Notes: generated by a model from the sequence alone, not told the origin. 64,000 nucleotides of DNA from a bacterium (GCA_041640655.1 JBEPZV010000001.1:154845-218844), one strand, 5' to 3'; counted from the stretch's first letter, positions 19,541 through 60,154 are shown. A program made the numbers and translations.

Positions 19541-20770
19541 ATGAGGCGCATGACCCTCGAGGAGATCAATCGCCACATCCGGCTGATCGCGGAACAGCTG
19601 AAGGCGTTCATGCGCTCGGAGCAACGCGCGCTCCTGCGATCGGCGCTTTTTGACGTCCCCCGCCGCTCCTCGCTCGGATGGGAATGCCTCTACCGCACGG
19701 CCTATCCGCTGCTGGCGGACCTCACGTCGGTCGTCACGCCTGAGGAGATCGGACGCCGGATGAAGCGCGTGTGCGCGCGCCCGAATTTCCTCACGCTGAG
19801 CATTCTGATCTGCTGCTACCTCGGGGGACGCCAGCAGCGGATCCTCGATCTCGGCGTGCGACCGGGAGAGCCCTTCCCCGAGGATGATCCCGAGCAGATC
19901 GGCTTCGTCCTCGACTTCTGGTGGCGCGTCTGCCGCACCTATCGCGAGGATGGTGCCCTCTTGCCGGAAGAGCGAGGAGGGACGATGCCGATCCTGCCGG
20001 CCGGAACGATCGCTCGACTCCGCGCGCTGCTGGTCGAGACGGATCCGCTCACGGTGAAACGCCTTCGTCGTCTGGCGGCGACGCTGGAGCTGTACGCGTT
20101 CATCCTGCACGGGGAGCAACGCGATGGCCTCTTCGCGCACGGCCCGTACGCGCTGCAGGAGCGGGCGGGCACCCCACGCGATCTCCGGATCGCGTGGGGA
20201 CCCCGGGAGGTGCTCGTCATTCGCGAGTTCACCGACCTGCAGAACAGTTATCTCCCCTGGGCGCAGACGCGCGCGCGGAACCTCTACCCGAATCTGGCGC
20301 TCGCGCTCCAGCTTCGGGACGTGACGGCTCAGTTCGATCTCTTCGGAGGGGTGCGATTCGATCCCCCGGAATATGCTGATCGCGTTCGCGCCGTCGCGTT
20401 GGTGACCGTGGCCGACAATGGGGAGATCCGAGCCGTCCCTTTCGAGGAGATCGAGGAGATCGAACGCCGCGCGGCCGACGCCCAGATGGAGCTGTATCAA
20501 CGCGCGCTCTGCTGGTCGCCGCGCTTCAAGATCGAATACGGCCTCTACCTGTTCGCGAACCACGTGAAGGCGTTCTTCGATCTGGCGGGGGTGGAGGCGG
20601 GCGAGCGCATTCGTCGGGCGTTCGAAGAGGCCGCCGCTCCGTTCCTGCAGCGGTTGCTCGCCGATGCCGAACCACCATTCATCTGGCGGTTCATGGCGAC
20701 GACAGAAGGCGATTTCTTCTATCCGATCTCCGCGCAGATGCCCGAACGTGAGGGAGGAGAGGGGCGATGA
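19541..20770 (+). CDS. conserved hypothetical protein (paralog P2), carries an in-frame palindromic-element insertion
   Basis: Paralog of P1. Insertion GTPRDLRIAWGPRE (copy d) lies at a site where P1 has no insertion. Confidence 0.5.
   Translation: MRRMTLEEINRHIRLIAEQLKAFMRSEQRALLRSALFDVPRRSSLGWECLYRTAYPLLADLTSVVTPEEIGRRMKRVCARPNFLTLSILICCYLGGRQQRILDLGVRPGEPFPEDDPEQIGFVLDFWWRVCRTYREDGALLPEERGGTMPILPAGTIARLRALLVETDPLTVKRLRRLAATLELYAFILHGEQRDGLFAHGPYALQERAGTPRDLRIAWGPREVLVIREFTDLQNSYLPWAQTRARNLYPNLALALQLRDVTAQFDLFGGVRFDPPEYADRVRAVALVTVADNGEIRAVPFEEIEEIERRAADAQMELYQRALCWSPRFKIEYGLYLFANHVKAFFDLAGVEAGERIRRAFEEAAAPFLQRLLADAEPPFIWRFMATTEGDFFYPISAQMPEREGGEGR
20167..20204 (+). repeat. 38-nt palindromic element copy d (inside P2 coding sequence)
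   Basis: GGGCACCCCACGCGATCTCCGGATCGCGTGGGGACCCC; perfect 12-bp inverted arms. Confidence 0.85.
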
Positions 20771-22923
20771 GAGAGGAGAGCCTCTTGATGGTTCACCAGC
20801 AGGAGCCGCTTGGTCAGAGCGAGCCCGCTCGGGAATACTCCTGCGCTGTGGATACGGGGGGGACGTTCACCGACTGCGTCGTCGGCGATTCGGAGGGGAA
20901 TCTGGTCTTCGCCAAGAGCCCCTCGACGCCGCACGATTTTTCGGCGGGCTTCTTCGCCGCACTCGCCCTGGCGGCGGAGCAGCTTGGGCTCACGCTCACC
21001 GAACTGATGGCGCGCACGCGACGGCTCATGCACGGGACGACGGTGGGCACCAACGCCATGGTGGAGCTCAAAGGGGCGCGCGTGGGGTTGATCACGACGC
21101 GGGGGCATGGGGATGCCATCCTCATCATGCGCTCGGTGGGCCGCTCGGCGGGATTGCCGATCGAGCGGTTGCTGCATGTCTCCCGTCATCAGAAACCCCG
21201 GCCCCTCGTCCCCCGCCACCTCATTCGCGAGGTGAGCGAACGCGTGGACTGGCGCGGCGAGGTCATCGTGCCTCTGAATCGAGAAGAGGCGCGTCGCGCC
21301 ATCGAGGAGTTGCTGGAGCAGAAGGTCGAGGCCATCGCCATCGCCTTCCTCTGGGGATTCGTGAATCCCATCCACGAGCGCGAGGTTCGCCGCATGGTCG
21401 AGGAGATAGCGCCCGACCTCTTCGTCACCTGCGCGCACGAGTTGATCGCGAAGCCGGGCGAGTATGAGCGGACGGCGGCGACCGTGATCAATTGTTTCAT
21501 CGGGCCGAAGACGACGCAGTACATCCGCCGGGTGGAAGAGCGGGCTCGCGCGCTCGGCTGCACGGCTCCCCTCCTCATCATGCAAGCATCAGGTGGCGTC
21601 GCGCCGGCCCGGGAGATCCTGCGCGCGCCGTTGTTCACCATCGGCTCGGGGCCGGCAGGGGGCTTGATGGGATGCCAGTTCCTGGCCGAGACCCTCGGAC
21701 ATCCCCACGTCATCGCCACGGACATGGGGGGGACGAGCTTCGACGTCGGCCTCATCGTGGACGGGATGCCGCTGTCGGCGTCCGAGACCACACTCGAGCA
21801 GTACACCTTCTTCATGCCTCGCTTGGACATCCTCTCCATCGGCGCGGGCGGAGGATCCATCATCTGGATCGATGAGCGGAGCGGAACCCTGAAAGTCGGT
21901 CCGGAATCAGCGGGGGCAGACCCGGGACCCGCCTGCTACGGACGCGGAGGCACACGACCCACGGTGACCGATGCGGACCTCATCCTCGGCTATTACAATC
22001 CGGAGTTCTTCCTGGGGGGGAGGCTGACGCTCAATCCTGAAGCGGCTCACCACGCGATGCGCACGGTCGCCGACCCCCTCGGGTTGGACATCACCGAGGC
22101 GGCCGACGGAGCCACGCGGATCGTTGAGATGCAGATGGCCGATCTCATCCGGCAGATGACCATCCAGCGGGGATACGATCCGCGCGATTTCGTCATCTAC
22201 GCCTACGGCGGAGCCGCCGGCGCCCATGCGGCTGTCTACGCGCGGGAGTTGGGATGCCGCACGGTCGTCATCCCGCGCGGAGTCCTGGCCGCCACCTGGT
22301 CGGCCTTCGGGATCCTCTCGACGGATGTCCAGCACGTCTTCGAGAGATCGGAGCTGCTCATCGCACCCCTGGATGCGACGCGCGTCACGGAGATCTTCCT
22401 CGAGCTGGAAGAGCGAGCCCGCCGACAATTGTGCGAGGAGGGGGTGGCCGAGGATCAGATCCTCCTGCGCCGCTTCGCGGAGATGAAGTTCCGACTGCAG
22501 ATCCATCGCGTCGAGATCCCCGTCCCCGGTGGGATTCTGACCGATCAGGACATGCGCGATCTGGAGCAGGCATTCGTACAAAAGTACGAGACGCTCTATG
22601 GACGCGGATCGGCATTCACGGCGGCGGGCATGGAGATCGGCCTGCTGCGCGTGGTGGCGCTCGGGCGCATCGCTCGCGGGCCGTTGAAGCAGCTCTCCAC
22701 CGAGCACCGCAGCGGATGGACGCCCGTCGGACGGCGCCAGGTCTACTGGCGGGAACTCGGACGACGGATTCAAACGCCCATCTTCTCCGGGGAAGGGATC
22801 CCCCCTGAGACATCTCTGGAGGGTCCGGCGATCGTCGAACTGCCCGTGACGACCATCGTCGTCCGCCCGGGCGACCGCCTCACCACCGATGCATATGGGA
22901 ATTTCATCCTCACCCTCCCCTGA
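20767..22923 (+). CDS. hydantoinase A / acetone-carboxylase beta-like subunit (HyuA family)
   Basis: 718 aa; N-terminal AVDTGGTFTDCVV and ASKHD-superfamily ATPase motifs of hydantoinase A/oxoprolinase. Confidence 0.8.
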   Translation: MREESLLMVHQQEPLGQSEPAREYSCAVDTGGTFTDCVVGDSEGNLVFAKSPSTPHDFSAGFFAALALAAEQLGLTLTELMARTRRLMHGTTVGTNAMVELKGARVGLITTRGHGDAILIMRSVGRSAGLPIERLLHVSRHQKPRPLVPRHLIREVSERVDWRGEVIVPLNREEARRAIEELLEQKVEAIAIAFLWGFVNPIHEREVRRMVEEIAPDLFVTCAHELIAKPGEYERTAATVINCFIGPKTTQYIRRVEERARALGCTAPLLIMQASGGVAPAREILRAPLFTIGSGPAGGLMGCQFLAETLGHPHVIATDMGGTSFDVGLIVDGMPLSASETTLEQYTFFMPRLDILSIGAGGGSIIWIDERSGTLKVGPESAGADPGPACYGRGGTRPTVTDADLILGYYNPEFFLGGRLTLNPEAAHHAMRTVADPLGLDITEAADGATRIVEMQMADLIRQMTIQRGYDPRDFVIYAYGGAAGAHAAVYARELGCRTVVIPRGVLAATWSAFGILSTDVQHVFERSELLIAPLDATRVTEIFLELEERARRQLCEEGVAEDQILLRRFAEMKFRLQIHRVEIPVPGGILTDQDMRDLEQAFVQKYETLYGRGSAFTAAGMEIGLLRVVALGRIARGPLKQLSTEHRSGWTPVGRRQVYWRELGRRIQTPIFSGEGIPPETSLEGPAIVELPVTTIVVRPGDRLTTDAYGNFILTLP

Positions 22924-22955
22924 GCAGGGGGCTATCCCTTCGGAGGAGGACGACT

Positions 22956-25220
22956 ATGTCATCCATCGCGTGGGACGGCCGGCAATACCCCTACGTCTAT
23001 GGCCGAGAGCTGAAGATCGCTCCCGGCCTGAAACTCCACACGGAGGCGGTCGAGCGTATAGACCCGATCACCTACGAGGTCATCCGCCACGCCCTCTGGA
23101 ATATCAACGTCGAACACGGGCTGACCATCATGAAGATCTCCGGCTCCCCCATCTGCGCCTACGGGCATGACTTCAATCCCTGCCTCCTTGACGAGAAGGG
23201 GGATTTCGTCTTCTTCGGCCCGTTCCTTCAGTATCTCTCCTCGGCGACCAGCTCGGCGGTGAAGTGGACGCTGGAGTATCGCTCGGAGAATCCGGGGATC
23301 GAGGAGGACGACATCTTCTTGACGAACGATCCGTGGATCGGCGCGACCCATCAATCGGATGTGACGTTGATCGCGCCCGTCTTCTGGGAGGGGGAGCTGT
23401 TCTGCTGGGTGGGGAATACGCTGCACCAGTGGGATTTAGGGGGGACATCGCCCGGAGGGTTCAATCCCATGGCCCCCGATGTCTATTGGGAGGCCGGATG
23501 CATCCCCCCGATCAAGATCGTCGAACGCGGACGCTTGCGGCGCGATCTGGAGGAAGAGTACATCCGCCGGTCGCGAATGCCGGAACTGGTGGCCCTGGAT
23601 CTGCGCGCGGAGATCGCCGGCTGCCACGTCGCCCGCGAGCGCATCAAACAGTTGCTCGCGCGATACGGAGCCGCGACCGTCAAGGGCGTCATGCGCAAGC
23701 TTCAGGAGGATTCGGAGCGCGCCTTCGTGCGACGCTTGGCGACCATCCCCGATGGGACGTGGCGCGAGGTCGGATGGGTGGAGTGGGCGCACCCGGGCGA
23801 TCGGCGCGTGTACCGGAATTGCCTGACGCTCACCAAGCGCGGCGATCAGTTGATCTTCTCCAACGAGGGGACTGACCCACAAGCCGGCACGCTCAATTGC
23901 ACGCTCGTCGCCTGGAGGGGGGCCATCATGGCCATGGTCTCGGCGCAACTGCTCTTCGATCAGATGTTCGTCGTCGAAGGCGCCTATCGGCATGTCCAGT
24001 TCCAGGTGCAGCCGGGGACGCTCACGTGCGCGCTCTTTCCGGCCGCGGTGAGCGCTGCCCCCGCGCTCACGCTCCTTCAGACGATCGCCCTCTCGGGACT
24101 CGTGATCTCCAAGATGCTCGCCTGTTCGGACGATCCCGAGTTGCGGATGGAAGTCCAAAGCTGCATGGGCGCACCCATGTATCCGATCGCGGCCGTGAGC
24201 GGCCTCAATCAGCGGGGATCGCCCTACGTCTCCTTCCTGCTCGATCCGGTGGGAGCCGCCCTGGCCGGACTCTCCTGGCGAGATGGCGTGGATACGGGCG
24301 GCTGGCCCTGGGATCTGCAAAGCACCATGCCCAATGTCGAGGAGAACGAGTGGTTCTATCCGATCCTCTACCTCTGGCGTCGCGAGCTGCCCGATTCAGG
24401 CGGAGCGGGAATGTTCCGCGGTGGGAACGCCGCCGAATTGGCCTTCCTCCCTCATGGGACGGAACGCATCACGCTCTTCACCGCGACCGGACATTGCGCC
24501 GTCCCGGGACCGGGGCTGTTCGGCGGCTTCCCCACTTCGACGACGCGGTATGCCCTTGTTCGCAACACTCGCGCGCGATCACTCTTGTCCGCCGGACACG
24601 TGCCAGATCGCCTGGAGGTTCTCGGAGGACATGTGGAATATCTCCCGCCCAAGGCCTTCGACATCGTTCAGAATCCCGACGACGTCTTCATCATGTCCTG
24701 GGCCTCAGCGGGCGGCTACGGGGATCCGTTGCGGCGCGATCCTGAGCGCGTGGCCGAGGACTATCGCGAAGGGCGCTTGACCCGGGAGTGGGCGCAACGA
24801 GCCTATGGGGTCGTGCTCGATGAGACCGGAGCTGTCCTCGCGCCGGAGACGGAGCAGCTGCGCCAGCAGATGCGCCGGCATCGTATAGGAGCCGAGCCGA
24901 AGCCGCAAACGGCTCCTGATGAACCCGAGGCGCGCCTCTTGGCTGAAGGTCTGAAACTCGTCGGGGGATGGATCCGCTGCCGGTATTGCGATCATCCCCT
25001 CTCACCCCCGACGGAGAACTATAAGCGCCACTGCCTCCGAAAAAGCCTCTCCATTCAGGACGCGAACCCGCATATCCGCGATCCGAAGCTCTACATCGAA
25101 GAGACTCTGGAGTGGCGCCACTTCTACTGCCCGGGATGCGGCGCGCTCCTTCAGACGGAATTGGCGCGACCTTCGGATCCTCCCCTCTGGGACCTGCAGC
25201 TTGATCTCGGCGCGAAGTGA
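22956..25220 (+). CDS. hydantoinase B / acetone-carboxylase alpha-like subunit (HyuB family) with C-terminal Cys4 motif
   Basis: 754 aa HyuB-like. C-terminal CRYCDHP...CPGCGA resembles Zn-binding motifs of ATP-dependent ketone carboxylases. Confidence 0.8.
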   Translation: MSSIAWDGRQYPYVYGRELKIAPGLKLHTEAVERIDPITYEVIRHALWNINVEHGLTIMKISGSPICAYGHDFNPCLLDEKGDFVFFGPFLQYLSSATSSAVKWTLEYRSENPGIEEDDIFLTNDPWIGATHQSDVTLIAPVFWEGELFCWVGNTLHQWDLGGTSPGGFNPMAPDVYWEAGCIPPIKIVERGRLRRDLEEEYIRRSRMPELVALDLRAEIAGCHVARERIKQLLARYGAATVKGVMRKLQEDSERAFVRRLATIPDGTWREVGWVEWAHPGDRRVYRNCLTLTKRGDQLIFSNEGTDPQAGTLNCTLVAWRGAIMAMVSAQLLFDQMFVVEGAYRHVQFQVQPGTLTCALFPAAVSAAPALTLLQTIALSGLVISKMLACSDDPELRMEVQSCMGAPMYPIAAVSGLNQRGSPYVSFLLDPVGAALAGLSWRDGVDTGGWPWDLQSTMPNVEENEWFYPILYLWRRELPDSGGAGMFRGGNAAELAFLPHGTERITLFTATGHCAVPGPGLFGGFPTSTTRYALVRNTRARSLLSAGHVPDRLEVLGGHVEYLPPKAFDIVQNPDDVFIMSWASAGGYGDPLRRDPERVAEDYREGRLTREWAQRAYGVVLDETGAVLAPETEQLRQQMRRHRIGAEPKPQTAPDEPEARLLAEGLKLVGGWIRCRYCDHPLSPPTENYKRHCLRKSLSIQDANPHIRDPKLYIEETLEWRHFYCPGCGALLQTELARPSDPPLWDLQLDLGAK

Positions 25221-25252
25221 CCGCCCGACCTTCGCCGACAAGGAGACCGACG

Positions 25253-25597
25253 ATGAGGAAAATCGGGGAAGGGGAGCCGACGTCCGGACACGGCGCCGTC
25301 GGCATCTTGCGCAAAGTCGAAACCTTGGAGGACGTCCTGCGGTTGATGGAGATCGATCTCTCGGAGACGATCGTCTTCACTCCCTCGGCCTCGGTGACGG
25401 CCATCACGCCGATCCTTCCCAAGATCCGAGGGCTCATCTGCGCTTCCGGAGGCTTCACGTCGCATCTGGCGATCGTCGCCCGGGAGTTCGATCTGCCGTG
25501 CCTGATGGGAAGCCACCTCGAGGAGGTGAGCGCCCTCGAAGGACGTCGCGTGCGATTCACGGCCCAAGGGGAGATCTTTCTCGAGGACGATGTCTGA
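25253..25597 (+). CDS. PEP-utilizing enzyme mobile (phosphohistidine) domain protein, stand-alone
   Basis: GGFTSHLAIVAREFDLPCL matches the phosphohistidine swivel-domain signature; ATG 25253 after AAGGAGA. Confidence 0.7.
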   Translation: MRKIGEGEPTSGHGAVGILRKVETLEDVLRLMEIDLSETIVFTPSASVTAITPILPKIRGLICASGGFTSHLAIVAREFDLPCLMGSHLEEVSALEGRRVRFTAQGEIFLEDDV

Positions 25598-26468
25598 ACG
25601 GCGCCCGAAGATTTACCTGAATCTGAGCTTCCCCCAATTGGCCGCTCGGTACGCGCATCTTCCCGCCGATGGCGTCGGGCTCTTGCGCGCCGAATTCCTC
25701 GCCCTCTCGCTGGGTGTCCATCCGAAGCAGCTCCTCGCCGAAGGGGGGGCGGAGACCTTCATCCGAGCCTTCGCCGAGGGAGTGATCGAGGTCGCGCGCC
25801 AGTTCTGGCCCCGACCGGTCACCTATCGCGCGCTCGACCTGAAATCGAACGAATATCGCGGCCTGCGCGGAGGCCAGCAGCTCGAGGAGCCGGAAGAGAA
25901 CCCCGCGCTCGGTCTGCGCGGATGCCGCCGCTATCTGGATGATCCGGAGCTCCTCCGCCTCCAAGCGCGCGCCGTACGAAGCGTCCATGAGGCCGGATGG
26001 ACCAACGTGCGCCTGATGCTCCCCTTCGTGCGCACCGTGTCGGAGGTCCTCGCCTGCCGCGAGATCCTTCAGCAGGAGGGGCTCTTCGAGAGAGGTATCC
26101 CCCTCTGGATCATGGTCGAAGTGCCCTCGGTCGTCTTCCTCATCGAACGATTCCTCCCGTTGGTGGACGGCGTCTCCATCGGAACCAACGATCTCACGCA
26201 GCTCATCCTCGGCGTGGATCGAGATAACCCGCGATTGATCCCCCTGTGGGATGAGCGCGACGACGCCATCATGCGCGCTATCGAATGGGTCGCGCGCGCA
26301 TGCCGGGAGAGCGCCCTGGAGTGCTGCGTCTGCGGCGATGCCCCCTCGCGACGCCCGGAGCTGATCCCCCAGCTGCTGCAACTGGGCCTCACGGCCCTCT
26401 CGGTCTCCCCCGAGGCCTTTGAGCGAACGCTTCGAATCGTGCGCGAGAGAGAGCCCGGCTCAGGGTGA
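25590..26468 (+). CDS. PEP-utilizing enzyme C-terminal TIM-barrel (PEP/pyruvate-binding) domain protein, stand-alone
   Basis: PEP-synthase C-terminal domain motifs (GLLRAEFL, SIGTNDLTQ, CGDAPS); no ATP-grasp domain present. Confidence 0.7.
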   Translation: MSERRPKIYLNLSFPQLAARYAHLPADGVGLLRAEFLALSLGVHPKQLLAEGGAETFIRAFAEGVIEVARQFWPRPVTYRALDLKSNEYRGLRGGQQLEEPEENPALGLRGCRRYLDDPELLRLQARAVRSVHEAGWTNVRLMLPFVRTVSEVLACREILQQEGLFERGIPLWIMVEVPSVVFLIERFLPLVDGVSIGTNDLTQLILGVDRDNPRLIPLWDERDDAIMRAIEWVARACRESALECCVCGDAPSRRPELIPQLLQLGLTALSVSPEAFERTLRIVREREPGSG

Positions 26469-27120
26469 GCCGCTAGCGTACGTCGCTCGCCCAGAGCCGC
26501 GAGCCTTCTTGCTCCCATCACCCTCCCCGGGTTCCCCACCCTATCCCCCATCGCCACGATTTCCGCCTCATCTCAGTCCGTGCGGGGACGTCCGCTGCTG
26601 CTCTCGCTCTTGTTTCGTCCGTCGGCCCGCCGGATCCCCGGTCACCTCTCCATCCCCTCTGAATCCGACGCCTTTCAGGAACCGCCGCTGTGCCGGAAGC
26701 CACGACAGGCTCGATCGCGCATCATCGGGCGAAAATCCCTATATCCACATGAGCCTCCGCACGCTCATACCCGAAGCAGACGGCATCGGAACGTAGATCC
26801 CAGGTCGACCGCCTCGCCCACAACCTGCGAGGCAGCTCCCGCAGCAGATGCCTCAGCCTTCGACCATATCGGGGGCATCGGGTTTGGGCCGCGTCCTCCG
26901 ACAGGCGAAGCGCGCTCCCCATCCCACATCGGGGGGAGGGAGTCGGTCCGAGGATCCGCTCTTCGGGCTTTAAAACGAGCTTCGGTATGCCTTATGATTG
27001 ATCTTCCACAGGAGCGAGCACGATGTGTGAGCTGGACATGGAGAGAATGGCTCAGCGTGGGCATCCTGTGATCGGCGCGCGCTTCGCTCCGAGCGCGCTC
27101 TCTCAATAGGGAGGATCGCG

Positions 27121-28371
27121 ATGGCCTTCACCATGAAGGATCTCCACGATTTGATTCGGATCTTGGAGAAGCATCCGGAGTGGCGCACGGAACTGCGGCG
27201 GCTCCTTCTGACCGATCAGCTGCTGGAGCTGCCCGTCATCGTTCGCGAGTTGGCCGAAGCACAGCGACGAACGGAGGAACGCGTGGAGGCGTTGGCCGAG
27301 GCGCAGCGGCGGACGGAAGAACAGGTGCGGGCCTTGACGCAGCAGGTGCAGGCCTTGGCCGAGGCGCAACGGCGGACGGAGGAGCGGGTCAGTCGGGTGG
27401 AGGAAGAGCTGGCCAAGTTGGCCGAAGCGCAACGGCGGACGGAAGAACAGGTGCGGGCCTTGACGCAGCAGGTGCAGGCCTTGGCCGAGGCGCAACAGCG
27501 GACGGAGGAGCGGGTCAGTCGGGTGGAGGAAGAGCTGGCCAAGTTGGCCGAAGCGCAACGGCGGACGGAAGAACAGGTGCGGGCCTTGACGCAGCAGGTG
27601 CAGGCCTTGGCCGAGGCGCAACAGCGGACGGAGGAGCGGGTCAGTCGGGTGGAGGAAGAGCTGGCCAAGTTGGCCGAAGCGCAACGGCGGACGGAAGAAC
27701 AGGTCCGGGCCTTGACCGAGGCGCAGCGACGAACGGAAGAACAGGTGCGAGCCTTGACTGAAGCGCAGCGGCGGACGGAGGAGCAGGTGCAAGCCTTGAC
27801 CGAAGCGCAGCGGCGGATCGAACAGCAAGTCGCCGATCTGGTGGCCGCTCAACAGCGCACCGAGCGCACCTTGCAACGCCTCCTCGAATGGCAACAGGGC
27901 GAAGCGGGACGGCGCGAGGGCGAGCGATACGAGCGGCGCATCGTGGTGCGCGCGCCCAACCTGTTCTTCGGTGGCGAGGGCGGTGCACCCGGGGAGCCGG
28001 ATGTGCGTCGTCAACTCAGCCGGTGGCTTCACCCGTTCTATCGAGAGGGTCGAGCCCCGGATCCCCCCGCCGATCCTCTCCTGGCCGACCTCATTTGGTG
28101 GAAAGGAGAGGAAGTGTTCGTCGTGGAGGTGTCGCAGAAAGTGGACCCTCAGGACATCCACCGCGCCCGTCAACGAGCCGATACCTTGCGCGAAGCGGGC
28201 GTGAACGCCACACCGGCTGTGATCGGCGAGGAGTGGGCGACGCCGGAGTCACAGGCGCTGGCCCAACAGGAATCGGTGGAATGGTTGGTCGGCGGAGGCC
28301 TTTCCCAGGGGTTCCTGCGCTTCCGCCGCCTGTCAGCCGAGACGCTGGAAAATCCCCCACGCGAAGGATGA
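27121..28371 (+). CDS. coiled-coil repeat protein (paralog A) with C-terminal putative PD-(D/E)xK-like domain
   Basis: N-terminal conserved block [22 protein letters not shown], then repeats of AEAQRRTEE(R/Q)V..., C-terminal FVVEVSQK block; ribosome-binding site GGGAGG. Confidence 0.6.
   Translation: MAFTMKDLHDLIRILEKHPEWRTELRRLLLTDQLLELPVIVRELAEAQRRTEERVEALAEAQRRTEEQVRALTQQVQALAEAQRRTEERVSRVEEELAKLAEAQRRTEEQVRALTQQVQALAEAQQRTEERVSRVEEELAKLAEAQRRTEEQVRALTQQVQALAEAQQRTEERVSRVEEELAKLAEAQRRTEEQVRALTEAQRRTEEQVRALTEAQRRTEEQVQALTEAQRRIEQQVADLVAAQQRTERTLQRLLEWQQGEAGRREGERYERRIVVRAPNLFFGGEGGAPGEPDVRRQLSRWLHPFYREGRAPDPPADPLLADLIWWKGEEVFVVEVSQKVDPQDIHRARQRADTLREAGVNATPAVIGEEWATPESQALAQQESVEWLVGGGLSQGFLRFRRLSAETLENPPREG
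27292..27810 (+). repeat. intragenic tandem repeat: 126-nt unit x3 followed by about 42-nt units x3
   Basis: Near-identical nucleotide units gccgaggcgcaacggcggacggaggagcgggtcagtcgggtggaggaagagctggccaagttg... Confidence 0.8.
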
Positions 28372-29028
28372 GCCCCAAAACTCGCGCCGCCAAACCCTGA
28401 GACCCGGCGGAGCAGTCATCCCCGTGGCAACCCGGTGACCTCTCTCGCTCGCGCATCCTCCCCTCACGATCCAGGTCAGGCGTTGAATTCGGCTTCACTC
28501 GAATGGAGTCCGGATGCCTGCCCTGGCACGTGCTGCGCCTCTTCTCCATCCCTGCCTCTTCGTCCACGGCCCTGAGGGGTTCCTCTCACACCCGGAGCGC
28601 GACGCTTGATCTCAACGATGGATCGAGCCCTCTCAGCCTCTCCCCCTTCCGGAGCGAACCCGCGCTGTCGGGAGATCGCTATGCGTCCTGAAAATGTCAA
28701 TAGGTATCTCCGGCACATAGCAGAAGAGCATGCGGCGGTTCTGGCGAGCGGTGCGATTATACGCGTGACTGAAGTGCGTATCCAGATTCGCACTCTCCCC
28801 TTGCGAACAGAGGAGTAGTCGCCATGGCGCAGAAGCCTAACACTCGCTCCAGCCGACCCGCCGCGGCAGGCGGCTGAGCCTGGTCGTTAGGCGGCATTCC
28901 GGGTGCCAAAGGAGGAGCGCGATGAACCATCCACGGCAATCGGTGATGGACATTTGGATCATACGGGTTGGAATCCGGCGAATCACAAGAGTTGTCGGGT
29001 TCTAGAAAATCTCACGAAAGGAGGGAGT

Positions 29029-29664
29029 ATGCGACGGAGAACGTTTCACTCGATGACGAAAGTGGGGGCGATGATCGCGCTCATGGGGATGTATGCTTGG
29101 GGTGTGGAGGCCCGTCTCTCCCAAGCGCCGCCCGTCCAGGATTCACGCCTGGAGCCGGCGCTCCAGCAAGCCCGGCAGGTGGCCAATGAGTTGGCCGACA
29201 CAGTTCGCCGCCTGCTGTTCAAAGAGCTGGAGAAAGGAGGATATGCTGATGCGGTGCGCGTTTGCTCGGAAGTGGCCCAGGACATCCCGCGCGAGTTCAC
29301 CGCTCGCACCGGTCATTCTGTTCGCCGCGTGAGCCTCGGCTATCGCAATCCCAAGGATGTGCCCGATGACTATGAGCGGCAGAAGCTCGAAGAATTCGAC
29401 CGCCTCAATCGGGGGAAGAAGCTAGAGAACGATTACTTTGAGGTTGTGAAAGAAGGCGAGCGTGAGTATCTCCGTTATCTCAAGCCACTCATTGCCGGGC
29501 CGATGTGTCTCACCTGTCACGGCGAGACGGCGAACATCCCGCCGGAGGTGAGGGCGATTCTCGCTGAGAAGTACCCTGAGGACCGAGCGACCGGCTATCA
29601 CACGGGCGACGTGCGCGGAGCTATCAGTGTGAAGATCGCCTTGCCGCCGGGCAAGCCTCAATGA
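29029..29664 (+). CDS. DUF3365-like secreted protein with CXXCH heme-binding motif
   Basis: ATG 29029 after AAAGGAGGG; signal peptide; motif PMCLTCHGE. Confidence 0.45.
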   Translation: MRRRTFHSMTKVGAMIALMGMYAWGVEARLSQAPPVQDSRLEPALQQARQVANELADTVRRLLFKELEKGGYADAVRVCSEVAQDIPREFTARTGHSVRRVSLGYRNPKDVPDDYERQKLEEFDRLNRGKKLENDYFEVVKEGEREYLRYLKPLIAGPMCLTCHGETANIPPEVRAILAEKYPEDRATGYHTGDVRGAISVKIALPPGKPQ

Positions 29665-29681
29665 TGTCTGGAGGAAGATGA

Positions 29682-29891
29682 ATGGTGACCAAAGAGACGC
29701 TCATTGAAGACATCGTCAGCCAGCACCCGGAGTCGGTGCGGTTTTTGTTCGAGAAGGGAATCAAGTGCATCGAGTGCGGCGAGCCGGCGTGGGGAACGCT
29801 GGAGGAAAACGCGCGGCGGAAAGGTCTGGATGAGGCGGCAATTGAGCGCCTCGTCCAGGAGTTGAATCAGTGGCTGGTTGAACACCCGTGA
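29682..29891 (+). CDS. DUF1858-like small protein
   Basis: 69 aa with CIECGE motif, resembling DUF1858 small redox-associated proteins; ribosome-binding site GGAGGAAG. Confidence 0.5.
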   Translation: MVTKETLIEDIVSQHPESVRFLFEKGIKCIECGEPAWGTLEENARRKGLDEAAIERLVQELNQWLVEHP

Positions 29892-30613
29892 CGCTGCTTG
29901 GTGAAAGTATCACCCGTGTCCAGCTTCACCAGGACTGTCGGCTGATTCGGCAGTTGATAGACGATGTAGCGGAAGCCGGTTGCCACGTGACAGCCGTTAC
30001 AGAAATTGACCATGTTGGTGAAATTGGTCTGGAAAGCGTTGAAACCCTGGTTGACGATGCCTTCAGTCCGCCCCTGCACACTCGGTCTTCAACCGAGCCA
30101 TCGTCTGCTCTAGCTCGGCCAGATGGTGCTTGAGCTGCTTTGTATGCTTTCGTACCACTTTGGGAGCCATCCGGTTGACATCTTTCCTGAGGCGCTCCAG
30201 ATCATTCAACACCGTGCTCATCTCCTTCATCGTGGATTCCGAACCTGGTTGTTTACCCCTACCGGCAATAGCGTTCTTTCCAAGAGCCGAGGGAACAAAG
30301 TCAGGAAAAGCACGACACGCTGCTGACGCTGTTTGTACTGCCTGTGCTCTACCGCCGGTTTGAGAAGGAGTGGGCCGAGGTGGAGATCGAGCTGGATTTT
30401 GTTGACACGACAAGCCGCGCCAGTTGACCCACCAACGGCGGCAAATGCCCCGACCGACTCGGCCCTCGACGCATCTGGCTTGGCCGGTTGTGAAATCGGG
30501 CGCGTGCCACATCACCAACGAGATCCATGCGTTAATTGGTCTCTCTAAATTTGCCTACGGCGTTCATTCCTCGCTGGCATGATATTTGCTTATCCGCATA
30601 GGCGGAGGAAGAA

Positions 30614-48999: not shown

Positions 49000-49386
49000 A
49001 TGAACGCATTTGAGCGAACAGTCACAACTGACAAATCGTTTGAAGAGGCCGTTGCGGCCATTGAGCAGAAGGCCGCTGAGAAGGGTTTCCGGGTGCTGCA
49101 CACGCACGATGTGGCGGCGACGTTGGCGGAAAAGGGCTTCCCACGCGAGCCCCTGAAGATTATTGAAATCTGCAACGCCAAGTACGCGAGCCAGGTGCTC
49201 AACAGGGATGTGAAGATTTCCCTCATGCTCCCCTGCCCGATCAGTGTGTATGTCGAAGGCGGCCAGACGCACATCAGCACGCTGCTCCCGACTTCGATTG
49301 TGCAGTTCTTTCCCCACGCCGGGATTGAGGATCTCGCGTCGGAGGTGGAGAGCATTGTGCTCCGGATTATAGAAGAGGCGCGTTGA
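49000..49386 (+). CDS. DUF302 domain protein
   Basis: 128 aa; family commonly found beside metal-resistance genes. Confidence 0.55.
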   Translation: MNAFERTVTTDKSFEEAVAAIEQKAAEKGFRVLHTHDVAATLAEKGFPREPLKIIEICNAKYASQVLNRDVKISLMLPCPISVYVEGGQTHISTLLPTSIVQFFPHAGIEDLASEVESIVLRIIEEAR

Positions 49387-49391
49387 GGAAA

Positions 49392-51305
49392 ATGAAAGAG
49401 GATAAGAAAATGAAAGAGGACAAGAAGGAAGAAATCTTTGAGGGGAAATGGTACGCTCACCCCCCAATGCGAAACGCATTGATAGCCGCCGTGCTCGCAG
49501 GCACCGCATTTGGGTTGGCTCATCTTGGGAGTATTCCTTCGCTGGTCGAGACCGCTCTCTATCTGGTGGCCATCCCATTGGGTGGCTACCACTGGGCTCG
49601 CGAAGGGATTGAAGAGTTGATCGAAGAGAACGAGATCGGCATAGAAATCCTGATGCTGGCGGCTACGCTTGGTTCAGCGGTGTTGGGCATGTTGGATGAA
49701 GCCGCCTTCCTGGTCGTCCTCTACGGGGCGGCTGAGGGATTGGAGGAGTACACCTACGCCAGAACCAGGGCTTCCATCAGGAAACTTCTCGACCTCGCTC
49801 CCAAAGAGGCGAGAGTCATCAGGAATGGGGAAGAAATAATCATACCCGCTGAAGAGATAGCTGTCGGAGATGTCTTCGTCGTCCGGCCCGGCGAGTCCAT
49901 CCCAACAGATGGCATTATTGTCAAAGGTCGGTCCAGCATCAATGAGGCTCCTGTGACCGGCGAATCCATCCCGGTTGAAAAGAAAGAGGGAATGAAGGTC
50001 TTTGCCGCTACTATCAATCAAGAAGGAGCGTTGGAGATCAGGGCCACAGCGACGTTTGAAGATAATACCCTCGCCAAAATGGTCCATCTGGTCGAGGAAG
50101 CACAGGAACAAAAGAGCAAGACTCAGCTCTTCATTGAAACGTTTGGGCGGAGATACTCTCCGTTAGTCCTCTTGAGTTCCTTGCTTCTCATCGTCATCCC
50201 TCCTCTGATCGGAGCGTCTTTTTCGGAATGGGCAACAAGGGCGGTGGTCCTTTTAGTCGCCGCTGCCCCTTGTGCTTTGGTGATGTCTACGCCCGTCGCC
50301 ATTGCCGCTGGGATTGGTCGGGCGGGCCGATCTGGCGTGCTGATTAAGGGAGGAATTCATCTCGAAAATCTGGGCAAGATCAAGGCGGTGGCGTTCGATA
50401 AGACAGGAACGCTCACCAGAGGCAAACCCATTGTAACCGACGTGGTGCCCCTGAATGGAGACGAATCTCAACTGCTGGCGTTCGCTTACAGTGTGGAGAG
50501 ATTTTCTGAGCATCCCCTGGCCCAGGCCATTGTGGAAAAGGCGAAAGAATCTCATGTCGAGGCTCTGGAAGCCACCGACTTTAGCGCTCTTGTTGGTTCG
50601 GGCGCGAAGGCCAAGATTGCCGGCAGAACGATTTACGTTGGCAAACCAGGGCTATTTGAAGAGCTGGGTCTGAAGGTCCGGGGCATTCCAGACGCTGAGA
50701 GGCTCAGGGACGAAGGGAAGACGGTGATTCTCGTGGGCACAGAAGAAAGTATTGCAGGGTTCATTGCCATCCGAGATGAGGTGAGACCCCAAGCCAAAGA
50801 GGTCGTAGATCAGCTTCACCGGATGGGTGTGAGAGTCGTCATGCTGACTGGCGACAATGAGGTGACGGCCAAAGCGATTGCTAAGGAACTGGGTATAGAT
50901 GAAGTGAAGGCCGATCTCAAGCCAGAAGATAAGATCAAAGCGGTGGAAGAATTGGAAAAGAAGTATGGGTCTGTGGCGATGGTTGGTGATGGTATCAACG
51001 ATGCGCCGGCATTGGCCAGAGCGACCGTTGGCATAGCTATGGGCGTAGCCGGGACCGATGCCGCCATCGAAGCCGCCGATATTGCTCTTATGGCCGATGA
51101 TCTCACCAAGGTGGTTTATGCGATCAATCTTGGCAAGAGAGCCAGACGGATCAGCTTGCAGAACATTGTCTTTTCGCTCCTCATTCTGGCGGTTCTGATA
51201 CCCTCAGCTCTCATTGGCATCATGACAGTGGCCATTGCGGTTGTGGCGCATGAGGGCTCAGAGCTTTTGGCGGTGGCCAATGGTTTGCGGGTAGCAAGGG
51301 GGTAG
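49392..51305 (+). CDS. heavy-metal translocating P1B-type ATPase (P1B-4-like; APC transmembrane motif, HEG C-terminal motif)
   Basis: [19 protein letters not shown]6 APC, C-terminal HEGSELL, no N-terminal HMA domain. An 18-nt tandem duplication encodes MKEDKK x2 at the N-terminus. Confidence 0.85.
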   Translation: MKEDKKMKEDKKEEIFEGKWYAHPPMRNALIAAVLAGTAFGLAHLGSIPSLVETALYLVAIPLGGYHWAREGIEELIEENEIGIEILMLAATLGSAVLGMLDEAAFLVVLYGAAEGLEEYTYARTRASIRKLLDLAPKEARVIRNGEEIIIPAEEIAVGDVFVVRPGESIPTDGIIVKGRSSINEAPVTGESIPVEKKEGMKVFAATINQEGALEIRATATFEDNTLAKMVHLVEEAQEQKSKTQLFIETFGRRYSPLVLLSSLLLIVIPPLIGASFSEWATRAVVLLVAAAPCALVMSTPVAIAAGIGRAGRSGVLIKGGIHLENLGKIKAVAFDKTGTLTRGKPIVTDVVPLNGDESQLLAFAYSVERFSEHPLAQAIVEKAKESHVEALEATDFSALVGSGAKAKIAGRTIYVGKPGLFEELGLKVRGIPDAERLRDEGKTVILVGTEESIAGFIAIRDEVRPQAKEVVDQLHRMGVRVVMLTGDNEVTAKAIAKELGIDEVKADLKPEDKIKAVEELEKKYGSVAMVGDGINDAPALARATVGIAMGVAGTDAAIEAADIALMADDLTKVVYAINLGKRARRISLQNIVFSLLILAVLIPSALIGIMTVAIAVVAHEGSELLAVANGLRVARG

Positions 51306-51430
51306 AGGCGAACCATGAGTTCAAAGTGCGCATTGACCGCTTCCTGACAGGCAAAGGAACACGCATGCAGGGTTGTTGGACATGGCGGAGATCAAGTCGC
51401 TTTTGTCGCTGGACACTTTCACTTGCCGTC

Positions 51431-51460
51431 TCTAGAATAGTTGAGCAATTGTTCAATTAT
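51431..51460 (+). promoter_or_regulatory. imperfect inverted repeat, putative ArsR/SmtB operator
   Basis: ATAGTTGAGCAATTG / CAATTGTTCAATTAT centred on CAATTG, about 20 nt upstream of the CadC-like gene start. Confidence 0.35.
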
Positions 51461-51475
51461 GATTATGAGGTGAAT

Positions 51476-51874
51476 ATGCCGAAAGCGACTGTCACTAAGA
51501 AGCGAACCAGCGCCCGGCTCCCAGTGCGCGACACGTGCGAGCAAGTTTGCTACGATGCGCCGCTTGTGCGCACGCTCAAGCGAGAGATGCTCGCCGACGA
51601 TACTGTGATGGAACTGGTGGCGACCTTCGAGGTTTTGGCCGACCCAACACGCCTCCGAATTATCTACGCGCTCGGCCGGGGCGAATTGTGCGTGTGCGAC
51701 CTGGCGCATGTGCTGGGGATGAGCTTGTCTGCCACGTCGCACCAACTGCGGCGACTGCGCGATCTTCGGCTGGTCAAGTACCGATACGAGGGCCGGATGG
51801 CCTTCTATTCGCTCGATGACGAGTTCATCAAGAAGATGGTGGAAGATGCGGTGCAGCACGTAGAGAGTGATTGA
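51476..51874 (+). CDS. ArsR/SmtB family metal-sensing repressor (CadC-like)
   Basis: LADPTRLRIIYAL helix-turn-helix and CVCDL metal site; GAGGTG ribosome-binding site. Confidence 0.8.
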   Translation: MPKATVTKKRTSARLPVRDTCEQVCYDAPLVRTLKREMLADDTVMELVATFEVLADPTRLRIIYALGRGELCVCDLAHVLGMSLSATSHQLRRLRDLRLVKYRYEGRMAFYSLDDEFIKKMVEDAVQHVESD

Positions 51875-51875
51875 G

Positions 51876-52994: not shown

Positions 52995-52999
52995 AAACG

Positions 53000-58805: not shown

Positions 58806-60002
58806 ATGGCTTTTGAGGTGGACGATTATCTGGATCTGATTCGACTGCTGCAGGAGCATCCGGAGTGGCGGGCAGAGCTGCGCCGTCTGCTGCTGACGGA
58901 GGAGCTGCTGGCGCTACCGGAGCTGGTCCGTGATCTGGTCCACGCCCAGCGGCAGACGCAAGAACACCTGGCGGCGTTGGCCGAGGCGCAACGGCGGATC
59001 GAACAACAGGTGGAGGCGTTGACGCAACAGGTGCAGGCCTTGGCCGAGGCACAACGGCGGACGGAGGAGCGGGTCAGTCGGGTGGAGGAAGAGCTGGCCA
59101 AGCTGGCCGAAGCGCAACGGCGGACGGAGGAGCGGGTCAGTCGGGTGGAGGAAGAACTGGTCAAGCTGGCCGAGGCACAACGGCGGACGGAGGAGCGGGT
59201 CAGTCGGGTGGAGGAAGAACTGGTCAAGCTGGCCGAGGCACAACGGCGGACGGAGGAGCGGGTCAGTCGGGTGGAGGAAGAGCTGGCCAAGCTGGCCGAG
59301 GCACAACGGCGGACAGAAGAGCGGGTCAGTCGGGTGGAGGAAGAGCTGGCCAAGCTGGCCGAGGCACAACGGCGGACGGAGGAGCGGGTCAGTCGGGTGG
59401 AGGAAGAACTGGTCAAGCTGGCCGAGGCACAACGGCGGACGGAGGAAGAGGTGCGTGCTCTGGCCGAGGCCCAGCGCCGGACCGAGCAGCGTGTTGGCCA
59501 TCTGGAAGAAGCGCTGCAGGTCCTGATCGAGAGCCACAAACGCTTGACGGATGTGGTGGGCGATCTCAGGGGGCGCGTGTTGGAACAGACCTACCGCGAC
59601 CGGGCCGGCGCATACTTCGGTCCGTTGCTGCAGCGGCTCCGGGTCGTGGACCCGTATGCGCTGGAGGAGGTGTTGCGCGTCCATCTCACGGCGGACGAGT
59701 TTTACGATCTGCTGCGCGTAGACCTGCTCGTTTGTGGGCAGCCGCGGTTGCGGCCGGAGATGATGGAGGTCTGGCTGGTGGTGGAGATCTCGGCCGTCGT
59801 GGATCAGGGTGATGTCGAGCGCGCCCAACGGCGGGCCAAACACTTGCGCCGAGCCGGCTATCGGGCGATTCCGATGGTGGCTGGGGAGCGCGTGACGTCG
59901 GGCGCAGAGGACGAGGTCCGCCGGCACCGCGTGGCGGTCTTGCAGGATGGGAGCGTGTCCTTCTGGGAGGAAGCCCTGGAGGCGTGGGCGGGCAGCGCCT
60001 GA
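58806..60002 (+). CDS. coiled-coil repeat protein (paralog B) with C-terminal putative PD-(D/E)xK-like domain
   Basis: Same N-terminal block as paralog A ([22 protein letters not shown]); 21-aa repeats [18 protein letters not shown](A/V)KL; C-terminal VVEISAVVD block. Confidence 0.6.
59040..59417 (+). repeat. intragenic tandem repeat, 63-nt unit x6
   Basis: Nearly identical 63-nt units (ctggccgaggcacaacggcggacggaggagcgggtcagtcgggtggaggaagaactggtcaag). Confidence 0.85.
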
Positions 60003-60154
60003 GGAGCCGATGGTGTGTCGTTGTCCCTTCCTTCTGTGCGAGGAGCCCGTCCCCGGTTCGTGGCAGCCCGCTGCCTGCCCACGAGTGAGGACCGCGCCGT
60101 CCGTGGGTCGGTGGGATTCACCGAGGCCGGAGTCAAGCGGTGCGCTGTGCTGCT

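What the first reader, a model, noticed from the sequence alone, without database searches (positions are those of the whole stretch)
27121..28371. Coiled-coil protein with hypervariable intragenic tandem repeats (126-nt and 42-nt units)
After a conserved N-terminal block the gene consists of near-identical DNA repeats encoding AEAQRRTEE(Q/R)V heptad-like coiled-coil units. It ends in a domain with a hydrophobic-EVS-QK block that could be a PD-(D/E)xK-type fold. High nucleotide identity between units implies ongoing slipped-strand or recombinational expansion and contraction, typical of contingency loci or molecular-ruler proteins.
Basis: partly seen in the sequence, partly recalled or inferred. 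Interest (0 to 1): 0.6.

Follow-up and report, generated by a model that had tools for sequence, protein, structure and literature searches.

The report
Nuclease-like protein on a length-variable stalk
This gene encodes a probable DNA-cutting enzyme mounted on a very long rod-like stalk built from near-identical DNA repeats that are gained, lost and swapped with a second similar gene nearby; it belongs to an undescribed protein family from hot-spring bacteria whose role is unknown.

Summary
ORF 27121-28371 (+, 416 aa) contains a 126-nt x3.4 array (98% identity; two units identical) followed by 42-nt units. Together they encode 30 unbroken heptads, a stalk of about 33 nm.

The protein has three parts: a conserved ~38-aa N-terminal helical module, the repeat stalk, and a C-terminal domain. 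The C-domain is confidently predicted (pLDDT 92.5) and resembles PD-(D/E)xK nucleases (NucS/EndoMS, Hjc, R.BspD6I, Mrr-type). E271, D323, E336, D345, R348 and R352 are conserved, and Ser338 replaces the canonical Lys.

The family is absent from Pfam, NCBIfam, PADLOC and PHROGs. It is rare (about 100 clusters at 50% identity), thermophile-associated and often multi-copy, with no conserved neighbours.

Stalk length ranges from 40 to 226 residues. Every near-identical population carries several alleles, which differ in steps of 7 residues, and the heptad phase is fixed (38/48, p~1e-23). The syntenic HR10 and HR08 orthologues have 353 and 320 aa with different units.

A second paralogue lies at 58806-60002, with a sister-type nuclease-like head. 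It shares the same 63-nt cassette at 92-98% DNA identity, against 68% for the N-modules, which indicates gene conversion.

This is a new variant of the known coiled-coil + PD-(D/E)xK (DUF1626/DUF3782) kind. Its function is untested.

The parts
26969..26998 (+). Promoter-like site (TTTAAA-18-TATGAT) about 120 nt upstream of gene 1. A terminator-like hairpin of the upstream gene lies at 26485-26504.
   Evidence: consensus scan only; 3 sites found against 0.2 expected
27121..28371 (+). Gene 1: 416-aa protein made of an N-module, a coiled-coil stalk and a PD-(D/E)xK-like domain
27121..27234 (+). N-terminal module (aa 1-38, [38 protein letters not shown]). It forms three short helices. R26, L30, L35, L37 and P38 are invariant across the family.
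27250..27879 (+). Repeat-encoded stalk (aa 44-253): 12 x 14-aa units plus 6 x 7-aa units, making 30 heptads in an unbroken register
27292..27669 (+). Three full 126-nt composite units (27292-27417, 27418-27543, 27544-27669), each built of cassettes A ([14 protein letters not shown]), B (LTQQVQA), C (LAEAQ(R/Q)RTEERVSR) and D (VEEELAK). Units 2 and 3 are identical.
27670..27837 (+). Four 42-nt units (L(A/T)[10 protein letters not shown](R/Q)A ... [14 protein letters not shown]), followed by a degenerate unit at 27838-27879
27880..28368 (+). C-terminal restriction-endonuclease-like domain (aa 254-416). Motif I is E271 (27931-27933), motif II is D323 (28087-28089), motif III is E336-V-S338 (28126-28134), and motif IV is D345, R348 and R352 (28153-28176). 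The WWK328 hairpin is invariant.
58806..60002 (+). Gene 2: a 398-aa paralogue with the same N-module (65% aa identity), a long stalk, and a C-domain of the sister subfamily (…[22 protein letters not shown]…). A TTGAGG-17-TATAGT promoter-like site lies at 58746-58774.
   Evidence: sister family
59041..59446 (+). Gene 2 repeat array: 63-nt unit x6.4, 95% identity, encoding [19 protein letters not shown](A/V)K. This is the same C-D cassette as in gene 1, at 92-98% DNA identity between the two genes.

Best explanation
Gene 1 encodes a cytoplasmic protein of an uncurated, thermophile-associated family. A small three-helix N-terminal module is joined by one continuous heptad coiled coil (about 220 residues, about 33 nm) to a C-terminal PD-(D/E)xK-type (restriction-endonuclease-like) domain.

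Shown: the anatomy; the fold assignment; the conservation of an acidic triad (E271, D323, E336) and of a motif IV helix (D345, R348, R352), with Ser in place of the canonical Lys; the unbroken register; and the family-wide fixed heptad phase between the two end domains despite a roughly 6-fold range of stalk length.

Inferred: the protein is a parallel homo-oligomer (dimer or trimer), and its heads are metal-dependent nucleases held at the end of a rigid stalk.

The stalk is encoded by 21-nt-phased cassettes that expand, contract and are reshuffled by unequal recombination or slippage. Shown: orthologues and population alleles differ by whole heptads. Shown in two genomes: cassettes are occasionally copied between paralogues. 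Here the C-D cassette (…[11 protein letters not shown]), which is native to gene 2 (58806-60002), was most likely copied into gene 1, fused with the native A-B cassettes into a 126-nt unit, and then triplicated very recently.

Length appears weakly constrained, while register is strongly constrained. The biological role is not established. It could be a stand-alone conflict or defence-type nuclease, or a DNA repair or recombination nuclease.
For: Architecture and homologues. Stalk register and 3.50-residue periodicity. A continuous helix from the N-module into alpha1 of the nuclease-like domain, in a full-length model of a short homologue (pLDDT 89). C-domain model with pLDDT 92.5 and pTM 0.83. 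Foldseek top hits are exclusively PD-(D/E)xK enzymes (R.BspD6I, NucS/EndoMS at prob 0.98-1.00 with rmsd 1.8-3.0 A, Cdn1, AF1548, Hjc/Hje, NucC, McrC, Can2; Mrr-type REases in BFVD). Conservation across 84 representatives at 50% identity (D323 83/84, E336 81/84, S338 79/84, D345 82/84, R348 79/84, R352 84/84). The same motif set is present in the sister subfamily (hhalign 98.7%, E=1.6e-16). The only local alignment to Hjc puts D323 on D33, E336 on E46 and S338 on K48. The same Lys-to-hydroxyl substitution plus a basic motif IV helix is described for DUF1626 (PMC1913061). Spacer length 40-226 residues with 38/48 non-redundant members in one mod-7 class (p=1e-23), and 11/11 near-identical groups with several alleles in steps of 7. 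The syntenic HR10 and HR08 orthologues have 353 and 320 aa and 105-nt units. Relatives of gene 2 differ by a clean 4x63-nt indel. Cassette identity between gene 1 and gene 2 is 92-98% (3rd codon positions 86-95%), against 68% (44%) for the N-modules. The C-D type unit is present in 70%-identical relatives of gene 2 but absent from the HR10 and HR08 orthologues of gene 1.
Against: No biochemical data exist for this or any related family. No Foldseek hit reaches E<1e-3, and no sequence profile (Pfam, NCBIfam, PDB) links the domain to a characterised nuclease. Oligomeric state and strand orientation were not modelled. Half of the core positions are polar (a = V/Q, d = L/T). The exact copy number of perfect 126-nt repeats may be an assembly estimate. 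A short-read contig identical to the window breaks inside gene 2's array. Cassette sharing between paralogues is not general.
Confidence: 0.65

Rival explanations
1. Adaptive ruler or diversity generator. The stalk length sets the distance between whatever the N-module binds and the site cut by the nuclease heads. Rapid in-register length change is then selected, for example in an arms race with mobile elements, much as the TAEL repeat number in the HsdS coiled coil changes the spacing of Type I restriction sites.
For: Several length alleles occur in every population, always in whole heptads. The phase between the N-module and the catalytic Glu is fixed in both subfamilies. The family is multi-copy and patchily distributed across phyla that share hot-spring habitats. 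The HsdS precedent is documented in PMC3874165.
Against: There is no known ligand for the N-module, no conserved partner gene, no defence-island context and no PADLOC match for the C-domain. In-phase variation is also what any continuous coiled coil built of 21-nt-phased repeats would show under neutral turnover. The length range is broad and continuous.
Confidence: 0.2
2. Non-catalytic scaffold. The PD-(D/E)xK-like head has lost nuclease activity (Lys replaced by Ser) and serves as a DNA- or protein-binding module on a structural coiled-coil rod, such as a nucleoid or cytoskeletal tether.
For: The canonical motif III Lys is absent in 84/84 representatives. The stalk is long, with a partly polar core and a conserved LAEAQRRTE motif. 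Multi-copy paralogues are scattered among housekeeping genes.
Against: The three acidic residues and the motif IV Asp/Arg residues are conserved at 89-100% across two subfamilies, which is hard to explain without a metal site. Lys relocation is well known in this superfamily (PMC1913061).
Confidence: 0.2
3. Assembly artefact. The 126-nt array, its copy number, or the resemblance to gene 2 arises from mis-assembly of repeats shared between two loci.
For: Units 2 and 3 are 100% identical. Many family loci in MAGs start inside the array or carry N-gaps in it. The contig VAPR01001993.1 ends inside gene 2's array. Neither exact protein is on record elsewhere.
Against: Both flanks of gene 1 are syntenic with HR10 at 93-95%, so the locus is not chimeric. 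Arrays are also present in an isolate and in a closed genome (Pyrinomonas K22 L039, Fervidibacter sacchari PD1 L032). The same alleles recur on many independent contigs. The reading frame and heptad phase are intact.
Confidence: 0.1

Closest known systems
DUF1626 / PDDEXK_10 (PF07788) proteins with a DUF3782 (PF12644) coiled-coil stalk (Knizewski et al. 2007, PMC1913061; Hartmann et al. 2016, PMC4786415)
   Same: The architecture is the same: an N-terminal coiled-coil stalk with a C-terminal PD-(D/E)xK domain. Both occur in thermophilic archaea and in bacteria such as Chloroflexi. [quoted passage not shown] The motif III Lys is replaced by a hydroxyl residue, and the motif IV helix carries a basic patch. 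Function is experimentally unknown in both.
   Different: There is no significant match to either Pfam model. This family has its own conserved N-terminal module, GExGRRxGExYE and WWKG signatures and an extra helix between beta1 and beta2. Its stalk is purely heptad-based, with occasional hendecads, and lacks the nonad beta-layers of the crenarchaeal proteins.
Archaeal Holliday junction resolvases Hjc/Hje and NucS/EndoMS
   Same: These are the best structural matches of the C-domain. The beta2-beta3 hairpin motif AD…EV(K/S) aligns with Hjc D33/E46/K48.
   Different: There is no sequence-level relationship (prob 0.4% by hhalign). The Lys is replaced by Ser. These enzymes have no stalk and no N-module. 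Nothing is known about substrates for the window family.
RmuC (PF02646)
   Same: It combines long coiled-coil regions with a PD-(D/E)xK nuclease domain in a single stand-alone protein implicated in recombination control (PMC1189080).
   Different: RmuC has an N-terminal transmembrane helix and a central rather than C-terminal nuclease domain. No profile match was found. RmuC has no hypervariable repeat stalk.
Type IC HsdS subunits (EcoR124I/II TAEL repeats)
   Same: An in-frame change in repeat number within a coiled-coil spacer alters the geometry between two functional domains of a nucleic-acid enzyme (PMC3874165).
   Different: The HsdS repeat is 4 aa, changes register, and sits in an antiparallel coiled coil inside a multi-subunit restriction-modification enzyme. 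Here the units are whole heptads that preserve register, and no functional consequence is known.
CoCoNuT (coiled-coil nuclease tandem) Type IV restriction systems (PMC11090510)
   Same: They associate extensive coiled coils with nuclease domains in conflict systems (abstract seen).
   Different: CoCoNuTs are multi-gene McrBC-derived systems with GTPases. The window genes are solitary, with no McrB/McrC neighbours.

Membership tests
PD-(D/E)xK (restriction-endonuclease-like) superfamily | [quoted passage not shown] | tested here: met
   AF2 models with pLDDT 92.5 and 89.2. The top Foldseek hits in PDB and BFVD are PD-(D/E)xK nucleases with prob up to 1.00, although every E-value is 2e-3 or weaker.
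PD-(D/E)xK (restriction-endonuclease-like) superfamily | Motif I Glu, motif II Asp and motif III (D/E)-x-K | tested here: inconclusive
   E271 is conserved in 75/84, D323 in 83/84 and E336 in 81/84 representatives. The Lys position, however, is Ser338 (79/84), and K340 is variable (34/84). Candidate replacements are R348, R352 or K328.
PD-(D/E)xK (restriction-endonuclease-like) superfamily | Metal-dependent phosphodiester cleavage | not testable with these tools
   This needs enzyme assays.
Pfam PDDEXK_10 / DUF1626 (PF07788) | Match to the family HMM at or above the gathering score | tested here: not met
   The window C-domain gave no hit at E<=10. Only 1 of 26 family members hit, at E=0.14. 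Divergent members and the sister family gave none.
Pfam PDDEXK_10 / DUF1626 (PF07788) | Motif III Lys replaced by a hydroxyl residue, with a basic patch in the motif IV helix, and an N-terminal coiled coil | tested here: met
   S338 together with D345, R348 and R352, and the stalk. The DUF1626 description was read in PMC1913061.
Pfam DUF3782 (PF12644) coiled-coil stalk | Match to the family HMM | tested here: not met
   DUF3782 is not among the hits of the full protein. Only generic coiled-coil models appear, all below their cut-offs.
Contingency (phase-variable) locus | A change in repeat number switches expression on or off, by frameshift or by promoter spacing | tested here: not met
   All units are multiples of 21 nt and lie inside the ORF. 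All 153 anchored relatives remain in frame, and their alleles differ by multiples of 7 aa.
Contingency (phase-variable) locus | High copy-number polymorphism among near-identical strains | tested here: met
   11/11 groups with >=95% identical C-domains hold 2-5 length alleles. HR10, HR08 and the window differ. L083 and L084 differ by a 252-nt indel.
Molecular-ruler proteins | The length of a rigid element determines a measurable distance in the product or target | not testable with these tools
   Only the prerequisites are seen: a continuous helix, an unbroken register and a fixed phase.
RmuC (PF02646) | HMM match; N-terminal transmembrane helix | tested here: not met
   There is no RmuC hit. 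The N-terminus is a polar helical module.
Known anti-phage defence proteins (PADLOC) and phage protein families (PHROGs) | HMM match of the globular domain | tested here: not met
   The C-domain matched 0 families in both libraries. The full-length hits are coiled-coil noise such as JetC and tape-measure proteins.

The most novel reading that the evidence does not exclude
The two paralogues of this genome have different nuclease-like heads, homologous N-modules, shared stalk cassettes and near-matched, exceptionally long stalks (233 and 222 residues from the N-module to the catalytic Glu; about 33 nm). They might co-assemble on a common coiled coil into a heteromeric nuclease whose reach is set by an evolvable, recombination-tuned ruler. 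That would be a single-protein-family system, for defence or genome maintenance, in which the distance between an N-terminal recognition or anchoring module and the cut site is reprogrammed by in-register repeat turnover and kept matched between partners by gene conversion.
Probability: 0.1. Interest if true: 0.8.

Novelty: new variant of a known kind. Interest (0 to 1): 0.5.

Why it matters
The family is absent from Pfam, NCBIfam, PADLOC and PHROGs, and it has a clear, testable anatomy. It adds a third, bacterial branch, with two subfamilies, to the still uncharacterised group of nucleases mounted on coiled-coil stalks.

It also offers an unusually clean natural experiment on coiled-coil length. 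There are dozens of alleles from 40 to 226 residues with fixed register, both within populations and between paralogues, and there is direct evidence that stalk cassettes move between genes.

If the heads are active nucleases, the system could show how stalk length affects target reach. It could also provide thermostable rigid spacers of tunable length. If they are not, the finding is mainly a well-documented case of intragenic repeat dynamics.

Tried and rejected
- Sequence-profile identification gave only coiled-coil noise. This covered the whole protein and its separate domains against Pfam, NCBIfam and PDB sequences.
- A de novo TIM-barrel hit in the PDB profile search is a spurious beta-alpha-beta repeat match.
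- Bridging to PDDEXK_10 through the most divergent members failed. It did uncover the sister subfamily.
- A search for conserved neighbours across 60 genome loci found only orthologous synteny.
- Viral contigs, phage genomes and plasmids gave no homologues.
- Rfam found nothing in the window.
- The N-module profile search returned mostly 40-90-aa fragments, which are gene calls truncated at contig ends inside the repeats and not stand-alone proteins.
- Exact-sequence look-ups for both window proteins found no record.
- The hhalign comparison with Hjc was not significant and is used only for motif register.
- The weak AHJR-like signal of the N-module (5/18 members, E>=0.05) is too weak to use.
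- No upstream motif is shared between gene 1 and gene 2.
- Cassette sharing between paralogues is not a family-wide rule: only 1 other genome among 14 tested shows it.
- The repeat motif (AEAQRRTE and variants) occurs in no searchable paper.
- My first motif scan for a second copy in the window missed gene 2, because the pattern was specific to the gene-1 type C-domain.

Full report
OBSERVATION. The ORF at 27121-28371 (+) is real and encodes 416 aa. Tandem Repeats Finder reports a 126-nt unit in 3.4 copies at 98% identity (27291-27716) and a 42-nt unit in 3.5 copies at 85% (27670-27817). Read codon by codon, residues 44-253 consist of 12 fourteen-residue units of the type [14 protein letters not shown] and 6 seven-residue units (LTQQVQA, VEEELAK). 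The 126-nt unit is a composite of four cassettes, A-B-C-D. Units 2 and 3 (27418-27543 and 27544-27669) are identical, and unit 1 differs at three bases. Hydrophobicity has one sharp periodicity at 3.50 residues, and the a/d register (a = V/Q, d = L/T) runs unbroken from about residue 37 to 258. That is 30 repeat-encoded heptads and a helix of about 33 nm. The one reservation is that the exact number of perfect 126-nt copies depends on the assembly.

ANATOMY. Homologues show three parts. The first is a conserved N-terminal module of about 38 aa that ends in an invariant L-x-L-P (alignment A2). The second is a repeat-bearing stalk of very variable length. The third is a conserved C-terminal domain of about 160 aa (alignment A1). 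A full-length AF2 model of a short homologue (236 aa, pLDDT 89) gives three short helices for the N-module. These are followed by a single continuous helix that runs directly into the first helix of the C-domain.

C-TERMINAL DOMAIN. No sequence library recognises it. Pfam, NCBIfam and PDB sequences gave nothing, and PADLOC and PHROGs gave nothing either. The AF2 model is confident (pLDDT 92.5, pTM 0.83). Its best matches in the PDB are all PD-(D/E)xK enzymes: the R.BspD6I small subunit, NucS/EndoMS (prob 0.98-1.00, rmsd 1.8-3.0 A), Cdn1, AF1548, Hjc/Hje, NucC, McrC and Can2. In the viral structure library the top hits are Mrr-type restriction endonucleases. E-values are weak (2e-3 or worse), so this is a fold assignment and not a family assignment.

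Across 84 representatives at 50% identity the putative active-site residues are strongly conserved: E271 75/84, D323 83/84, E336 81/84, D345 82/84, R348 79/84 and R352 84/84. Position 338, which aligns with the catalytic Lys48 of Hjc, is Ser in 79/84. Knizewski et al. describe the same pattern for DUF1626/PDDEXK_10: the motif III Lys is replaced by a hydroxyl residue, and the following helix carries a basic patch (PMC1913061). I therefore consider a metal-dependent nuclease likely but unproven.

FAMILY. An exhaustive profile search of 1.84 billion representatives finds only 98 clusters at E<=1e-30 and 152 at E<=1e-10. In species-representative genomes, 99 loci were found. They lie mainly in hot-spring Armatimonadota/Fimbriimonadales, Acidobacteriota (including the isolate Pyrinomonas methylaliphatogenes K22), Chloroflexota and the cultured Ca. 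Fervidibacter sacchari, often with 2-5 copies per genome. There is no conserved neighbouring gene. In the window, the neighbours of gene 1 are hydantoinase/acetone-carboxylase-like and PEP-utilising genes upstream and Tll0287-like, DUF1858 and ArsR/ArsP genes downstream. No homologue occurs on IMG/VR viral contigs, phage genomes or plasmids.

A sister subfamily has the same N-module and a repeat stalk but a diverged C-domain (LADVVVRG…LVVEVSWGV…DVxRAxRRA). It was found with the most divergent members. It is also absent from Pfam and is clearly homologous, at hhalign 98.7% and E=1.6e-16, with all motifs aligned.

STALK DYNAMICS. Almost every lineage has its own repeat unit. Periods are mostly multiples of 21 nt (21 to 126), a few units contain hendecads, and DNA identity reaches up to 100%. 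Many contigs start inside the array or carry N-gaps in it.

I measured the spacer between the Pro of the L-P motif and the Gly of GExGR. It ranges from 40 to 226 residues, and the window protein (222) is the second longest. Its length modulo 7 falls in one class in 38 of 48 non-redundant members (p=1e-23), and 7 more fall in the class expected from one hendecad. The same dominant phase holds in the sister subfamily when measured to the motif I Glu.

All 11 groups of proteins with >=95% identical C-domains contain two to five length alleles that differ by multiples of seven residues. For the window gene itself, the syntenic orthologue in Bacterium HR10 (flanks 93-95% identical) has 353 aa and a 105-nt unit. 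The HR08 orthologue has 320 aa. A 96%-identical metagenome contig has yet another cassette order. The arrays are thus evolutionarily labile, but they always stay in frame and in register. This is not an on/off contingency switch.

SECOND GENE AND CASSETTE EXCHANGE. The strong GC skew at 58-60 kb led to a second family gene at 58806-60002 (+, 398 aa). It has the same N-module (65% aa identity), a 63-nt x6.4 array (59041-59446, 95% identity) and a C-domain of the sister subfamily. Its repeat unit [19 protein letters not shown](A/V)K is the C-D half of gene 1's 126-nt unit. The copies in the two genes are 92-98% identical in DNA (third codon positions 86-95%). The adjacent N-modules are only 68% identical (third positions 44%), and the C-domains belong to different subfamilies.

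Relatives of gene 2 at 70% identity carry a homologous 21-aa unit, in 6 against 2 copies, between two otherwise 98-99% identical contigs. The HR10 and HR08 orthologues of gene 1 lack the C-D cassette. The simplest history has three steps: gene conversion of C-D from gene 2 into gene 1, fusion with the native A-B cassettes, and a very recent triplication.

A second case of stalk sharing between paralogues is seen in HR15 (86% over 296 nt), but most paralogue pairs have unrelated stalks. Both window genes have exceptionally long stalks, 233 and 222 residues from L-P to the motif I Glu. Relatives range over 51-237 and 44-107.

MECHANISM AND RIVALS. The best-supported reading is a homo-oligomeric, probably metal-dependent nuclease head displayed on a rigid heptad stalk capped by a small helical module. 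Stalk length would be weakly constrained and turned over by unequal recombination and occasional inter-paralogue conversion. Steps shown: anatomy, fold, conserved motifs, register, polymorphism and cassette sharing. Steps inferred: oligomerisation, catalysis and direction of transfer.

There are three rivals. In the first, length is adaptive, as a ruler or diversity generator, by analogy with the TAEL repeats of HsdS (PMC3874165). In the second, the head is a non-catalytic binding module on a structural rod. In the third, the copy number is an assembly artefact. A 100%-identical short-read contig ends inside gene 2's array, but synteny on both sides of gene 1 excludes a chimeric locus.

COMPARISON AND NOVELTY. 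The closest known kind is the coiled-coil-stalked PD-(D/E)xK group catalogued as DUF1626/PDDEXK_10 plus DUF3782 (PMC1913061; PMC4786415). It shares the architecture, the thermophile bias and the Lys-less motif III, and it is itself functionally uncharacterised. The window protein fails the HMM membership tests and has its own N-module and signatures. I therefore rate it a new variant of a known kind. RmuC and the CoCoNuT systems are looser analogues.

Interest is moderate. The family is undescribed, and the in-register length hypervariability together with the cassette exchange between paralogues with different heads is a neat, testable phenomenon. However, the fold, the architecture and repeat instability as such are not surprising, and the biological role remains open.

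Noticed in passing
window 58806-60002: A second family gene (398 aa, sister-type C-domain) has a 63-nt x6.4 array at 59041-59446. It shares the C-D cassette with the gene under study at 92-98% DNA identity. It was found through the extreme GC skew of the 58-60 kb bin.
   Followed up: yes
L082 (VAPR01001993.1) = window 59357-62999: A public 9.2-kb metagenome contig is 100% identical to the window and ends inside gene 2's repeat array. The same population was therefore assembled elsewhere with a break at the repeats, and copy numbers in such arrays depend on the assembly.
   Followed up: partly
L083 and L084 (Ga0079997_104526, Ga0079992_118808): Two contigs are 98-99% identical in their flanks and carry the gene 2 homologue with 6.1 against 2.1 copies of a 63-nt unit, a clean 252-nt indel.
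   Followed up: yes
window 28374-30232 vs L002 5522-6445: The segment downstream of gene 1, holding the Tll0287-like (28903-29664) and DUF1858 (29682-29891) genes, does not align with Bacterium HR10. HR10 has only about 920 nt there, although both outer flanks are 93-95% identical.
   Followed up: no
window 26469-27120: A gene-free stretch of about 650 nt lies upstream of gene 1 and is about 80% conserved with HR10. It has no Rfam match. It contains a promoter-like site at 26969-26998, and a terminator-like hairpin of the upstream gene lies at 26485-26504.
   Followed up: partly
window 49383-54189: GC content falls from about 0.65 to 0.49 at 52-54 kb. The genes there are a P-type ATPase, an ArsR-family regulator, an MtrA-like protein with a DUF4346 pterin-binding domain, a SAM methyltransferase and an unassigned 168-aa ORF. 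This may be an acquired metal or methylation-related island.
   Followed up: no
window 20767-26468: Hydantoinase A and B (with an acetone-carboxylase gamma-like tail) are followed by a PEP-utilising enzyme split into separate mobile-domain (25217-25597) and PEP-binding (25590-26468) ORFs that overlap by 8 nt.
   Followed up: no
L019 and L035 (Bacterium HR15, two contigs): Two paralogues of one genome share stalk DNA (86% over 296 nt; 39-aa [26 protein letters not shown]… units), while their C-domains barely align. Both contigs begin inside the array.
   Followed up: partly
L031, L034, L040, L043, L069, L073, L076: A subset of family members carries an extended or duplicated N-terminal module of about 62-80 aa (…HPEWREALQERL…LRLLQQRADLREAVRRLVLTDELLELP).
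   Followed up: no
window 27121-27260 (N-module) and alignment A2: There is a weak but recurrent similarity to the C-terminal part of Pfam AHJR-like (PF18743, REase family) in 5 of 18 members, all at E>=0.05 and below threshold.
   Followed up: partly
family-wide: The motif LAEAQ(R/Q)RTE recurs in the stalks of distant lineages (Acidobacteriota, Armatimonadota, Chloroflexota), even though each lineage's array is its own recent expansion. It is not found in any searchable paper.
   Followed up: partly
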